Assembly (NCBI GenBank): GCA_013815775.1
Contig: JACDFN010000002.1
Coordinates: forward strand, 192,717 to 256,716
Direction of reading: 5' to 3'
Source: Candidatus Saccharimonadota bacterium
GTDB taxonomy: Bacteria > Patescibacteriota > Saccharimonadia > Saccharimonadales > UBA10212
DNA: 64,000 nucleotides
Of the stretch, positions 51,238-52,764 are shown piece by piece. Numbering within the stretch: the stretch's first letter is position 1; each line of letters begins with the position of its first letter. Below the pieces are notes generated by a model, which saw nothing but the letters and a program-made list of their open reading frames with translations, was not told the origin of the DNA and did not search any database. The position numbers and the translations under genes are program-made.

Positions 51238-52764
51238 GTGAACTATTTTATCCGAACGGCCGGGCCTATTGACAGATTTTTAGATACCATTACTTCTTAT
51301 AAGTTATTACTGTATTTTCTTCAAATTCTCCTTGCCTGGACGATTATAGGAGCTGGTTTTGGATGGCTGCCTTTTGAGTGGTATCAAATATTTCTATCGG
51401 CGCTACTTCTGACGACTGTCTGTTGGTCAGCTGGCTGGTTTTTTGGGCGTAGCTTGGACATACCCCGAAACGCAGAATCAGACTATATAACAGCCTTGAT
51501 CTTAACGCTAATTTTAAGCCCTGGAAGCAGTCTCTCAGACTTTGCTATTTTAGCAGCAGCAGGTCTGCTGGCTGTATCTTCAAAGTATTTGATAGTGCTG
51601 AGCCGCCGGCATATTCTAAATCCCGCGGCTTTTGGTGCATTTGGAGTAGGCTTTTTACTAGACTATTTTCCCAGCTGGTGGGTAGGAACAAGCATTACTA
51701 CTCCTCTGCTCTTAATTGGCGGTCTACTAATATTGAGAAAAATGAAGCGCTTCATTATGGTGGGTACCTTCCTGGGTCTTTACGTTGTAGTCTTTTCGGT
51801 GACAGTTCTTAGCACTTCTGGTGATTTAGTCGAGGGGTTAAGATTAGGCTTTACGGCTACGCCGCTTTTGTTTTTTGCGTTTGTAATGCTGACAGAGCCC
51901 TTAACTTCACCCTATGCGTTGAACAAAGCGCTGCCTTATGCCGTTTTGGTCGGACTTCTATATTCAACTACCAGACTTAAACTGGCGCCCGAAGAAGCGC
52001 TGCTTATTGGCAACCTGTTTGCTTATGCTTTGGTCAGAGACAAACGAATTGAACTTATTTTTTTAAAAAAGAAAAAAGAGGCCCAAGGTATCTACAGCTA
52101 CCTTTTCTCGTTAAAGAAGCCTTTTTCTTTTACACCCGGACAATTTATGGAGTGGACCCTGCCCTTGAGTAAATCAGACTCTAGAGGAAACCGGCGTTAC
52201 TTAACCGTTTCATCTTCTCCTACAGAAAAAAGTCAGATGATGATGAGCGTTAAGTTACCAGATAATCCTAGCAGCTTTAAGCAGAGACTTAATACTTTCT
52301 TGCCTGGCGATAAAATAATGGTTTCTCATTTATCAGGAAATTTTGTATTGCCAAAAGACGTCAGCCAAAAATTGGCTTTTATTGCTGGGGGGGTCGGGAT
52401 TACCCCTTTTAGAAGTATTGTTAAATATGCGGTCGATAGCCAGATTCACAAAGACTCGGTGCTGCTTTATTCTTCCAATAGTCCCCAAGAATTTGCTTTT
52501 GTCGACTTATTTAAGAAGGCCAGCGCTTTTGGGCTTAGAACGTTTTACACAGTAAGTGCAAAAGAGTTGTCTTTAGCGGATTGGGGGGGTCCTAGGGGTC
52601 CTATCAACTCAGCCATGATAAAACAATCTATGCCAGACTATAGTGATAGACTGTTCTACGTATCCGGACCGTATGGGTTTGTGCAAGCAGTTGACATTGA
52701 GTTGGGTAAACTCGGTGTTCCTAGCCGTCAGATTAAATTAGACTACTTTCCCGGTTATGGTTAA
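51238..52764 (+). CDS. fusion protein: NqrB/RnfD-like polytopic membrane domain plus FNR-type FAD/NAD(P)H oxidoreductase domain
   Basis: 508 aa from a GTG start. The N-terminal ~270 aa are polytopic and contain RHILNPAAFG (compare HIFNPA of NqrB/RnfD). The C-terminal half has RRYLTVSSSP (RxYS), AFIAGGVGITPF and FYVSGP, all FNR-like motifs. Confidence 0.65.
   Translation: MNYFIRTAGPIDRFLDTITSYKLLLYFLQILLAWTIIGAGFGWLPFEWYQIFLSALLLTTVCWSAGWFFGRSLDIPRNAESDYITALILTLILSPGSSLSDFAILAAAGLLAVSSKYLIVLSRRHILNPAAFGAFGVGFLLDYFPSWWVGTSITTPLLLIGGLLILRKMKRFIMVGTFLGLYVVVFSVTVLSTSGDLVEGLRLGFTATPLLFFAFVMLTEPLTSPYALNKALPYAVLVGLLYSTTRLKLAPEEALLIGNLFAYALVRDKRIELIFLKKKKEAQGIYSYLFSLKKPFSFTPGQFMEWTLPLSKSDSRGNRRYLTVSSSPTEKSQMMMSVKLPDNPSSFKQRLNTFLPGDKIMVSHLSGNFVLPKDVSQKLAFIAGGVGITPFRSIVKYAVDSQIHKDSVLLYSSNSPQEFAFVDLFKKASAFGLRTFYTVSAKELSLADWGGPRGPINSAMIKQSMPDYSDRLFYVSGPYGFVQAVDIELGKLGVPSRQIKLDYFPGYG

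What the first reader, a model, noticed from the sequence alone, without database searches (positions are those of the whole stretch)
51238..52764. One polypeptide joining an NqrB/RnfD-like membrane domain to a cytosolic FNR-type NAD(P)H/FAD reductase
Seen: a ~270-aa N-terminal half with at least 6 hydrophobic helices and RHILNPAAFG. A linker (KKKKEAQG) follows, then a C-terminal ~230 aa with all three FNR-family motifs. In Nqr and Rnf the NADH-oxidising subunit (NqrF/RnfC) and the FMN-carrying membrane subunit (NqrB/RnfD) are separate proteins. A direct fusion would short-circuit that complex into one chain. I could not find a clean (S/T)GA(T/S) site in the membrane half; the closest is GFTATPLL. 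Whether this domain is itself flavinylated is therefore open.
Basis: partly seen in the sequence, partly recalled or inferred. Interest (0 to 1): 0.6.

Follow-up and report, generated by a model that had tools for sequence, protein, structure and literature searches.

The report
Known NqrB-like/FNR fusion reductase (NQR/RNF-like)
The gene really does encode one protein that joins an NqrB/RnfD-type membrane domain to an NAD(P)H/FAD reductase, but this fusion was published in 2021 and 2024 as the "NQR/RNF-like" system, so this is a correct rediscovery in a Saccharibacteria genome.

Summary
ORF 51238..52764 (+) encodes 508 aa. Residues about 1-270 form a 10-helix membrane domain whose model matches only RnfD and NqrB among solved structures (TM 0.67-0.72). 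Residues about 271-508 form an FNR-type FAD/NAD(P)H domain with all three motifs.

The fusion is not an artefact. All 80 fetched genome loci encode it full-length, out of at least 590 matches in Patescibacteria, Chloroflexota and Alphaproteobacteria.

An ApbE flavin transferase and an NqrC/RnfG-like FMN_bind protein with a DFVSGAT site lie next door on the minus strand. A type II NADH dehydrogenase lies directly upstream.

This architecture is the published "NQR/RNF-like" system (Méheust 2021, eLife; Huang 2024, mSystems). The literature also reports that the membrane domain lacks the flavinylated Thr, and I confirm this. The loop that carries T187 in E. coli RsxD is deleted, and "TATPL" is not a flavinylation site.

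Three observations I did not find in the papers I read:
- The four riboflavin-ligating positions of NqrB are conserved.
- The associated ApbE is a ~250-aa form with no room for an export signal, here and in most relatives.
- Saccharibacteria keep the genes in a ZIP-Fur-MFS-NDH2 neighbourhood.

Verdict: already known as a class, never tested experimentally. Interest is low to moderate.

The parts
51238..52764 (+). The fusion protein, 508 aa. Residues 1-270: NqrB/RnfD-fold membrane domain, about 10 helices, N- and C-termini cytoplasmic. Residues 271-508: FNR-type FAD/NAD(P)H domain.
51238..52047 (+). Membrane domain. It keeps counterparts of the NqrB riboflavin ligands (T85, H125, N128, E220). 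It has an invariant W147-W148 in the predicted outer loop where RnfD/NqrB carry the flavinylated Thr loop, which is deleted here.
   Evidence: Riboflavin ligands are from PMC9325719.
52048..52764 (+). FNR-type dehydrogenase domain: RRYLTVSS (FAD), GGVGITPFRS (NAD(P)H), YVSGP, and a C-terminal aromatic tail DYFPGYG.
53501..53929 (-). NqrC/RnfG-like FMN_bind subunit, 142 aa. It has an N-terminal MKK + hydrophobic signal-anchor and the flavinylation motif DFVSGAT. It is the presumed covalent-FMN carrier on the outer face.
   Evidence: Pfam FMN_bind E 1.7e-9. Weak RnfG and NqrC hits. Motif and anchor are conserved in related loci.
52738..53496 (-). ApbE-family FAD:protein FMN transferase, compact 252-aa form with no signal peptide. 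Its 3' end overlaps the 3' end of the fusion gene by 27 bp in convergent orientation.
   Evidence: Pfam ApbE E 1.4e-38. Alignment to E. coli Ftp starts at Ftp residue 41. PDB ApbE hits. In-frame TAA directly upstream of the ATG.
50002..51213 (+). Type II NADH dehydrogenase (NDH-2) homologue. It ends 24 nt before the fusion gene on the same strand and is probably co-transcribed. It is conserved at this position in Saccharibacteria but not in other phyla.
   Evidence: best PDB hits YjlD and C. thermarum NDH-2. Synteny. Only 2 of 80 broader loci have it.
47236..49897 (.). Conserved neighbours in Saccharibacteria: ZIP metal permease (47236..47958 -), Fur-family regulator (48021..48443 +), DHA2 MFS exporter (48440..49897 -). 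Functional linkage is inferred from synteny only.
   Evidence: The same order occurs in L086, L087 and L088, and ZIP-Fur-fusion in L083/L084.

Best explanation
The gene encodes the large subunit of a two-subunit, all-flavin 'NQR/RNF-like' transmembrane electron-transfer module. NAD(P)H is oxidised at the cytoplasmic C-terminal FNR-type domain, which carries FAD. This domain is held directly against the cytoplasmic face of the NqrB/RnfD-fold membrane domain by a connection of about 5 residues. Electrons then pass to a non-covalent flavin in the pocket that binds riboflavin in NqrB. From there they reach the FMN that ApbE attaches covalently to the Thr of DFVSGAT in the small membrane-anchored FMN_bind (NqrC/RnfG-like) subunit. 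That subunit docks on the outer face, where NqrB and RnfD would carry their own covalent FMN. Electron flow is one-way and outward, to an extracellular acceptor. In Saccharibacteria the conserved Fur-ZIP neighbourhood makes reduction of Fe(III) or another metal for uptake the leading candidate. Shown here: domain identities, conservation of the fusion, the partner genes and their motifs, absence of the flavinylated loop, and conservation of the riboflavin-pocket positions. Inferred: every electron-transfer step, the identity of the internal flavin, the direction of flow and the acceptor.
For: The fold of residues 1-272 matches RnfD and NqrB only, and the profile hits only RnfD in the PDB. The FNR fold and motifs are present. 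The full-length model has pTM 0.81 with a very short interdomain connection. The fusion is full-length in 80/80 loci across three phyla. The N-terminal domain family has 1231 clusters at E<=1e-3. FMN_bind was found beside the fusion in 65 of 80 loci and ApbE in 62 of 80. The commonest order, FMN_bind-ApbE-fusion on one strand, occurs in 52 of 80. Of the 68 FMN_bind ORFs, 65 carry a [ST]G[AS][TS] site; 45 of them have Asp three residues before it, the others mostly Asn. Nearly all have a basic N-terminus, usually MKK, followed by a hydrophobic anchor. NqrB riboflavin ligands T162/N200/N203/D346 (PMC9325719) map to T85 (T72/S9 of 81), H125 (81/81), N128 (81/81) and E220 (80/81). The positive-inside pattern of the loops puts RR 122-123, RKMKR 167-171 and the FNR domain inside, and W147-W148 outside (sequence). 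The published model is the same (PMC8238504 section 13; PMC11334425 section 9). ZIP and Fur are syntenic with the fusion in 5 of 6 Saccharibacteria contigs examined.
Against: No member of this system has been studied experimentally (one search found only the two bioinformatic papers), so the direction of flow, the cofactors and the acceptor are all inference. The associated ApbE has no export signal, which sits badly with a substrate domain on the outside. Alignment of the N-terminal half of the membrane domain to RsxD and NqrB rests on MAFFT plus the NPA motif and the fold match; HMM significance covers only residues about 160-271. The Fur-family protein cannot be typed as Fur, Zur or PerR, and the ZIP protein is ZupT-like below cut-off. 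RmuC is also syntenic, so part of the conserved gene order may simply be inherited. I could not obtain model coordinates, so no cofactor distances were measured.
Confidence: 0.7

Rival explanations
1. It is a minimal NAD(P)H:quinone oxidoreductase. Electrons go FAD -> internal flavin -> quinone at an NqrB-like site, and the FMN_bind subunit is accessory. The adjacent NDH-2 would be a parallel quinone reductase.
For: In Na+-NQR, NqrB passes electrons from riboflavin to ubiquinone (PMC9325719). The riboflavin-pocket positions are conserved. A genuine NDH-2 homologue is encoded directly upstream in Saccharibacteria.
Against: This does not explain why ApbE and an FMN_bind subunit with an intact flavinylation motif are kept beside the fusion in about 80% of loci. 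NDH-2 is next to the fusion in only 2 of 80 broader loci. From general knowledge, most Saccharibacteria lack quinone biosynthesis; this was not tested here. No quinone-related genes were seen among the window genes I annotated.
Confidence: 0.12
2. The flavinylated subunit and the whole redox chain face the cytoplasm, or flavinylation happens in the cytoplasm before export. In that case the 'extracytosolic' reading of the system is wrong or incomplete.
For: ApbE here has an in-frame stop directly upstream of its ATG and starts at the equivalent of E. coli Ftp residue 41. Across 62 related ApbE ORFs, the median open frame upstream of the core is 12.5 aa, and only two have a hydrophobic upstream stretch: one is a 13-residue fragment and the other appears to be a spurious frame overlapping the neighbouring FMN_bind gene. 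Cytosolic ApbEs acting on cytosolic substrates are known (PMC12052999).
Against: Most FMN_bind partners have a basic N-terminus (usually MKK) before the anchor and a flank after it that is on average near neutral. This is the pattern of an N-in/C-out signal-anchor. Homology to NqrC and RnfG, and the published AlphaFold-multimer model, place the domain on the outer face (PMC11334425 section 9).
Confidence: 0.1
3. The membrane domain is itself flavinylated, at T208 of GFTATPLL or at T155 of SITTPL.
For: MAFFT places GTSITTPL opposite RsxD GISQATPL, which contains T187. Position 208 is Ser or Thr in 70 of 81 family members.
Against: Position 155 is Leu in 52 of 81 members and Thr in few. Position 208 is preceded by variable residues (S/H/Y/N/A), never by a [ST]GA context. 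It sits at the break of a membrane helix (helices 197-205 and 208-217). It aligns with the RsxD transmembrane segment LLSGATMLGAFFILTDP, not with T187. RsxD has about 100 residues between the NPA motif and the next helix, against about 30 here, so the loop carrying the flavinylated Thr is deleted. Huang et al. report the same absence (PMC11334425, Fig. 4F-G legend).
Confidence: 0.03
4. The fusion is an assembly or frameshift artefact joining two separate genes.
For: None found. About one third of the best 150 representatives of the N-terminal domain are shorter than 450 aa. These could be contig-end fragments or unfused forms; I did not test which.
Against: An identical protein is on record on two contigs, the longer one 261 kb. 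The 120 listed homologues are almost all about 500 aa and match at least 97% of the query. All 80 genome loci from three phyla match residues about 11-508 in one frame. E281, A282 and F290, just after the junction, are invariant in the close relatives.
Confidence: 0.01

Closest known systems
NQR/RNF-like flavinylation-associated system (Méheust et al. 2021 eLife, PMC8238504; Huang et al. 2024 mSystems, PMC11334425)
   Same: It has the same defining protein: an N-terminal NqrB/RnfD-homologous membrane domain fused to a C-terminal PF00175 NAD-binding domain. It has the same partners, an NqrC/RnfG-like FMN_bind subunit and ApbE. The membrane domain likewise lacks the flavinylated Thr. The candidate phyla radiation was named as a main carrier (127 clusters, 'primarily Actinobacteria and candidate phyla radiation').
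   Different: Gene order differs. The commonest order is FMN_bind-ApbE-fusion on one strand (52/80 loci). Here and in other Saccharibacteria it is NDH2-fusion on one strand, facing ApbE-FMN_bind on the other, inside a ZIP-Fur-MFS neighbourhood. I did not find the signal-less compact ApbE or the conserved riboflavin-pocket positions stated in the parts of those papers I read.
NqrB (Na+-NQR) and RnfD/RsxD (Rnf/Rsx)
   Same: The fold is the same (TMq 0.67-0.72). Conserved features include the NPA motif, the T(D/E)P motif, K116 (=NqrB K191) and counterparts of the riboflavin ligands. The predicted topology is the same, with the C-terminus in the cytoplasm.
   Different: There is no covalent-FMN Thr loop, because about 75 residues are deleted. 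The Pfam score is below the gathering threshold. It is fused to an FNR domain. No NqrA/D/E/F or RnfA/B/C/E genes are nearby. N200 is replaced by His and D346 by Glu. Whether it moves ions is unknown.
NqrF FAD/NADH domain and other FNR-superfamily reductases (flavohaemoglobin reductase domain, cytochrome b5 reductase)
   Same: It has the two-lobed FNR fold (TMt 0.82 to 4eh1 and 0.73 to the NqrF FAD domain). It carries the RxY(S/T), GGxGxxP and (C/S)GP motifs.
   Different: It lacks the N-terminal 2Fe-2S ferredoxin domain and the single anchor helix of NqrF. It has Ser instead of Cys in the xGP motif. It is attached to a polytopic membrane domain.
NOX/FRE-type NAD(P)H oxidases and ferric reductases (for example SpNOX, 8qt6)
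   Same: The logic is analogous: an N-terminal membrane domain with internal cofactors is fused to a C-terminal FNR-type dehydrogenase domain, carrying electrons from cytoplasmic NAD(P)H outward. SpNOX appears among the full-length Foldseek hits.
   Different: The membrane domain is unrelated (NqrB/RnfD fold, not the six-helix di-haem ferric-reductase domain). Only one His is invariant in the membrane domain (H125), so bis-His haem ligation is not possible. The cofactors would all be flavins.
Listeria-type flavin-based extracellular electron transfer locus (Ndh2, PplA, FmnB, EetA/B, DmkA/B), as summarised in PMC8238504
   Same: An NDH-2, an ApbE-family transferase and an FMN_bind protein lie in one neighbourhood.
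   Different: No EetA/EetB or Dmk genes were seen. The membrane-crossing component here is the NqrB-like fusion. The NDH-2 association is confined to Saccharibacteria.

Membership tests
NQR/RNF-like system (operational definition of Méheust 2021) | [quoted passage not shown] | tested here: met
   The Pfam hit is sub-threshold (20.1 bits; gathering score 27.7; E 4.5e-4). The family profile hits only RnfD in the PDB. The model matches only RnfD and NqrB with TMq 0.67-0.72. Many close homologues carry PF03116 in precomputed annotation.
NQR/RNF-like system (operational definition of Méheust 2021) | [quoted passage not shown] | tested here: met
   NAD_binding_1 at residues 381-485, E 3.9e-12, 47.2 bits against a cut-off of 22.
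NQR/RNF-like system (operational definition of Méheust 2021) | Encoded within five genes of an ApbE or FMN-binding-domain gene | tested here: met
   ApbE is the next gene and FMN_bind the one after it, on the minus strand.
NQR/RNF-like system (operational definition of Méheust 2021) | [quoted passage not shown] | tested here: inconclusive
   FMN_bind has an MKK + 17-20 residue hydrophobic N-terminus, but no SignalP-type predictor was available. ApbE has no room for a signal.
NQR/RNF-like system (Huang 2024 description) | Membrane domain lacks the flavinylated Thr conserved in NqrB and RnfD | tested here: met
   The loop carrying RsxD T187 is deleted. Neither T155 nor T208 is in a flavinylation context.
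NqrB/RnfD proper (subunit of Na+-NQR or Rnf) | Covalent FMN on a Thr in an [ST]GA[ST]-type motif in the periplasmic loop | tested here: not met
NqrB/RnfD proper (subunit of Na+-NQR or Rnf) | Encoded with the other complex subunits (NqrA,C,D,E,F or RnfA,B,C,E,G) | tested here: not met
   Only an NqrC/RnfG-like gene is nearby. None of the genes annotated between 45.8 and 55.2 kb, nor the ten largest ORFs of the rest of the window, is an Nqr or Rnf subunit.
NqrB/RnfD proper (subunit of Na+-NQR or Rnf) | Scores above the curated thresholds of PF03116 and TIGR01946 | tested here: not met
   20.1 bits against 27.7; 15.5 bits against 207.
NqrB/RnfD proper (subunit of Na+-NQR or Rnf) | Internal riboflavin pocket (NqrB T162, N200, N203, D346) | tested here: inconclusive
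   The positions are conserved as T/S85, H125, N128 and E220, with two substitutions. Actual flavin binding cannot be tested here.
FNR (ferredoxin-NADP+ reductase) superfamily | RxY(S/T) FAD motif, GGxGxxP NAD(P)H motif, (C/S)GP motif and the two-lobed fold | tested here: met
   Motifs at 319-326, 384-390 and 474-478, conserved in the family. Fold match TMt up to 0.82.
NOX/FRE ferric-reductase family | Membrane domain with two bis-His-ligated haems (four conserved His) | tested here: not met
   Only H125 is invariant in the membrane domain. The fold is NqrB/RnfD.
ApbE/Ftp FAD:protein FMN transferase (neighbour gene) | ApbE fold and sequence family; N-terminal lipoprotein signal in the canonical periplasmic enzymes | tested here: inconclusive
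   Family membership is met (PF02424, E 1.4e-38; PDB ApbE hits). The signal peptide is absent. Catalytic competence was not tested.

The most novel reading that the evidence does not exclude
Almost every NQR/RNF-like cluster examined, in three phyla, pairs a membrane-anchored and apparently outward-facing FMN_bind subunit with a compact (~250 aa) ApbE that has no export signal. Either the covalent FMN is installed in the cytoplasm before or during export of the subunit, which would be a route not described for ApbE substrates outside the cell, or the subunit is not extracytosolic and the published direction of the system needs revision. In Saccharibacteria the module also sits in a conserved Fur-ZIP-MFS-NDH2 neighbourhood. 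It may therefore be the metal-regulated ferric or other metal reductase of these reduced episymbionts, and one of their few membrane redox enzymes.
Probability: 0.3. Interest if true: 0.55.

Novelty: already known. Interest (0 to 1): 0.25.

Why it matters
This finding adds nothing new at the level of the fusion itself. The architecture, its partners, the missing flavinylation site and its presence in the candidate phyla radiation are already in print. The class still matters for three reasons. It has never been tested at the bench. It is the simplest known relative of the Nqr and Rnf pumps, with two proteins and only flavins. In Saccharibacteria, which have very few redox enzymes, it may be a main way to move electrons across the membrane. 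The three side observations give concrete handles for a first biochemical study: the conserved riboflavin-pocket positions, the export-signal-less mini-ApbE, and the Fur/ZIP/NDH-2 synteny.

Tried and rejected
1. Searching the PDB with the full-length family profile returned only FNR-type chains in the 60 rows shown, so I rebuilt a profile from the N-terminal half alone.

2. Foldseek with the full-length model was likewise dominated by FNR domains. A separate model of residues 1-272 was needed to see RnfD and NqrB.

3. hhalign of the N-terminal profile against single-sequence E. coli RsxD gave only a weak alignment of the C-terminal part (probability 8%, E 0.004). The residue mapping in the N-terminal part therefore rests on MAFFT, the NPA motif and the fold match.

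4. The MAFFT pairing of GTSITTPL with RsxD GISQATPL (T187) looked like a vestigial flavinylation site. I rejected it after family-wide conservation showed Leu at that position in 52 of 81 members.

5. Apparent FMN_bind-ApbE fusion ORFs in high-GC Chloroflexia loci (L041, L063, L078) appear to be spurious long open frames overlapping the FMN_bind gene in another frame, not fusions. The evidence is the frame offsets and the Arg/Pro/Gly-rich upstream sequence.

6. Supplementary file 1 of Méheust 2021 could have shown their signal-peptide calls for these ApbEs, but the NQR/RNF-like sheet is truncated in the held copy.

7. NCBIfam could not type the Fur-family regulator as Fur, Zur or PerR. All hits are far below cut-off.

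8. A literature search for experimental work on 'RnfD-like' or 'NqrB-like' proteins found only Huang et al..

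Full report
**The observation.** ORF 51238..52764 on the plus strand (GTG start, 508 aa) exists as described.
- RHILNPAAFG at 124-133
- GFTATPLL at 204-211
- KKKKEAQG at 277-284
- RRYLTVSS at 319-326
- GGVGITP at 384-390
- YVSGP at 474-478
- the C-terminal DYFPGYG at 502-508

Pfam finds NAD_binding_1 at 381-485 (E 3.9e-12). It also finds a sub-threshold NQR2_RnfD_RnfE match at 154-256 (20.1 bits against a gathering score of 27.7). 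NCBIfam places residues about 276-504 among FNR-type reductases, including NqrF, all far below equivalog cut-offs.

**Identity of the two halves.** I aligned the protein with 32 homologues (alignment A1) and modelled it. The model has pLDDT 89.5 and pTM 0.81.
- It shows about ten membrane helices up to residue 265.
- After about five residues, the first strand of a beta-barrel begins.
- Foldseek with the whole model returns FNR-type domains: flavohaemoglobin reductase domain 4eh1 (TMt 0.82), NqrF FAD domain 7qty (TMt 0.73), cytochrome b5 reductase, and SpNOX.
- A separate model of residues 1-272 (pLDDT 85.4) returns RnfD and NqrB chains as its top 15 PDB hits (prob 1.00, TMq 0.54-0.72). The next hits are urea and ammonium transporters at E>=0.1.
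- A sequence profile of the N-terminal half hits one PDB sequence only, Azotobacter RnfD 8ahx_D (E 0.002, profile positions 160-271).

**Not an artefact.**
- An identical protein is on record on two contigs, the longer one 261 kb, named 'FAD-dependent oxidoreductase [Candidatus Saccharibacteria bacterium]'. The 120 listed homologues are almost all about 500 aa and match at least 97% of the query.
- A scan of one genome per species gave at least 590 confirmed matches. The 80 loci kept all match residues about 11-508 in a single frame.
- These loci come from many Patescibacteria classes, from Chloroflexota (for example Dictyobacter aurantiacus) and from Alphaproteobacteria (Mesorhizobium, Kaistia).
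- The N-terminal domain alone finds 1231 clusters at E<=1e-3 among 1.84 billion representatives. About two thirds of the best 150 are 480-530 aa. The shorter ones may be fragments; I did not test this.

Three neighbouring genes bear on the finding.
- Immediately downstream on the minus strand lies an ApbE-family FAD:protein FMN transferase (52738..53496, Pfam E 1.4e-38).
- Next to it lies a 142-aa FMN_bind protein (53501..53929, Pfam E 1.7e-9). It has an MKK + hydrophobic N-terminus, the flavinylation motif DFVSGAT, and weak RnfG and NqrC hits.
- Directly upstream on the plus strand lies a type II NADH dehydrogenase homologue (50002..51213; best PDB hits YjlD and C. thermarum NDH-2).

Across the 80 loci, FMN_bind is next to the fusion in 65 and ApbE in 62. 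The commonest layout, FMN_bind-ApbE-fusion on one strand, occurs in 52. Of the 68 FMN_bind ORFs, 65 carry a [ST]G[AS][TS] site; 45 of them have Asp three residues before it and the others mostly Asn. Nearly all have a basic N-terminus, a hydrophobic anchor, and a flank after the anchor that is on average near neutral. This is the pattern of an N-in/C-out signal-anchor.

**Already published.** This is the 'NQR/RNF-like' system.
- Méheust et al. 2021 (PMC8238504, section 13 and methods) define it as a flavinylation-associated cluster. The cluster encodes a protein with an N-terminal NqrB/RnfD-homologous membrane domain (PF03116) and a C-terminal NqrF-like NAD-binding domain (PF00175).
[quoted passage not shown] They propose one-way NAD(P)H-to-outside electron flow and note VIT1 iron transporters in six clusters.
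- Huang et al. 2024 (PMC11334425, section 9 and Fig. 4) add an AlphaFold-multimer model of the Ktedonobacter complex. They state that the membrane domain lacks the flavinylation site conserved in NqrB and RnfD. They suggest that the FMN of the small subunit samples the vacated flavin site.
- A search for any experimental study found none.

**The flavinylation question.** I took E. coli RsxD as a real RnfD sequence; its T187 lies in GISQATPLD.
- Between the shared NPA motif and the next shared helix, RsxD has about 100 residues. The window protein has about 30, so the loop that carries the flavinylated Thr is deleted.
- MAFFT happens to lay GTSITTPL over GISQATPL, but position 155 is Leu in 52 of 81 family members.
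- Position 208 is Ser or Thr in 70 of 81 members, but it is preceded by variable residues. It sits at the break between two short membrane helices.

The membrane domain is therefore not an ApbE substrate, in agreement with Huang et al.

**How electrons could cross.** Kishikawa et al. 2022 (PMC9325719) place riboflavin inside NqrB on the cytoplasmic side, hydrogen-bonded by T162, N200, N203 and D346. I mapped these positions from NqrB to RsxD using the printed HMMER alignments, and from RsxD to the window protein.

| NqrB residue | Window residue | Conservation in 81 sequences |
|---|---|---|
| T162 | T85 | T in 72, S in 9 |
| N200 | H125 | H in 81 |
| N203 | N128 | N in 81 |
| D346 | E220 | E in 80 |
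| K191 | K116 | K in 81 |

The positive-inside pattern of the loops (RR 122-123, RKMKR 167-171, VRDKR 266-270) puts this pocket and the FNR domain inside. It puts the invariant W147-W148 loop outside, exactly where the deleted flavinylated loop would be.

The most economical path is NAD(P)H -> FAD -> pocket flavin -> covalent FMN of the FMN_bind subunit docked at the WW loop -> external acceptor. All of these steps are inferred. I could not measure distances because model coordinates are not exposed.

**Observations beyond the finding.**
- *ApbE has no export signal.* The ApbE gene has an in-frame TAA directly before its ATG, four bases after the FMN_bind stop.
  - The protein aligns to E. coli Ftp from Ftp residue 41 and lacks an internal segment of about 55 residues.
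  - Across 62 related ApbE ORFs the median open frame upstream of the core is 12.5 aa, and 50 of 62 have 30 aa or fewer.
  - Only two have any hydrophobic upstream stretch. One is a 13-residue fragment; the other appears to be a spurious frame overlapping the neighbouring FMN_bind gene.
  - The transferase of this system therefore looks cytoplasmic while its substrate looks extracytosolic.
  - Cytosolic ApbEs are known, but for cytosolic substrates (PMC12052999). I did not find this point in the papers read.
- *Conserved Saccharibacteria neighbourhood.* The order RmuC, ZIP, Fur-family, DHA2-MFS, NDH-2, fusion, then ApbE and FMN_bind on the other strand recurs in L086, L087 and L088 and partly in L085. 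L083/L084 lack MFS and NDH-2 but keep ZIP-Fur-fusion. L082 lacks recognisable partners.
  - This supports, weakly, a metal-linked role such as ferric reduction feeding a ZupT-like importer.
  - The regulator cannot be typed, and the co-conserved RmuC warns that some of the order may simply be inherited.

**Verdict.** The rest of the window is ordinary Saccharibacteria housekeeping: PBP1, ClpB, DnaE, GatA/B, UvrB, PheT and a type IV pilus ATPase, with no tRNA genes. Interest is low to moderate. The value lies in the side observations and in the fact that nobody has yet tested this minimal Nqr/Rnf relative experimentally.

Noticed in passing
window 52738..53496 (-); also ApbE ORFs in L001-L080: The ApbE next to the fusion is a compact 252-aa form with an in-frame stop directly upstream of its ATG, so no signal peptide or lipobox is possible. 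The same holds in most of 62 related loci from three phyla (median 12.5 aa of open frame upstream of the core). Its presumed substrate is a signal-anchored, apparently outward-facing FMN_bind protein, and this mismatch is unexplained.
   Followed up: partly
window 45817..53929; L083-L088: The gene order RmuC(-) ZIP(-) Fur(+) MFS(-) NDH2(+) fusion(+) ApbE(-) FMN_bind(-) is conserved among Saccharibacteria whose fusion proteins are only 50-60% identical. One lineage (L083/L084) lacks MFS and NDH2 but keeps ZIP-Fur-fusion. Outside Saccharibacteria the order is FMN_bind-ApbE-fusion, without these neighbours.
   Followed up: partly
window 52738..52764: The 3' ends of the fusion gene (+) and the ApbE gene (-) overlap by 27 bp in convergent orientation. 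This leaves no room for a terminator between them, so the transcripts would be antisense to each other at their ends. The same overlap occurs in L085 and L086.
   Followed up: no
window 51226..51240 and 48009..48023: A perfect TATAAT box ends 6 nt before the GTG start of the fusion gene, with no Shine-Dalgarno sequence. Another TATAAT ends 6 nt before the ATG of the Fur-family gene. Both suggest leaderless or near-leaderless transcripts. For the fusion gene it would be an internal promoter downstream of NDH-2.
   Followed up: no
window 51676..51681 (residues W147-W148): An invariant Trp-Trp pair (81/81 sequences) sits in the predicted outer loop that replaces the flavinylated Thr loop of RnfD and NqrB. 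It is a candidate stacking platform for the partner subunit's FMN.
   Followed up: partly
L041 (Chloroflexia MAG) about 3921..5250; also L046: Some loci carry two FMN_bind genes upstream of ApbE-fusion. L041 shows a frame break inside the second copy.
   Followed up: no
L082 (P0017, 54% identical fusion): This Saccharibacteria contig has the fusion gene but no Pfam-recognisable ApbE or FMN_bind within 5 kb. Unannotated 228-aa and 133-aa genes flank it and could be divergent partners.
   Followed up: no
window 55360..55632 (-): A small membrane protein ORF lies about 1.4 kb downstream of the FMN_bind gene. In L085 a DUF378 gene occupies a similar position near FMN_bind. I did not run the window ORF against Pfam, so the match is unverified and the relevance unknown.
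   Followed up: no
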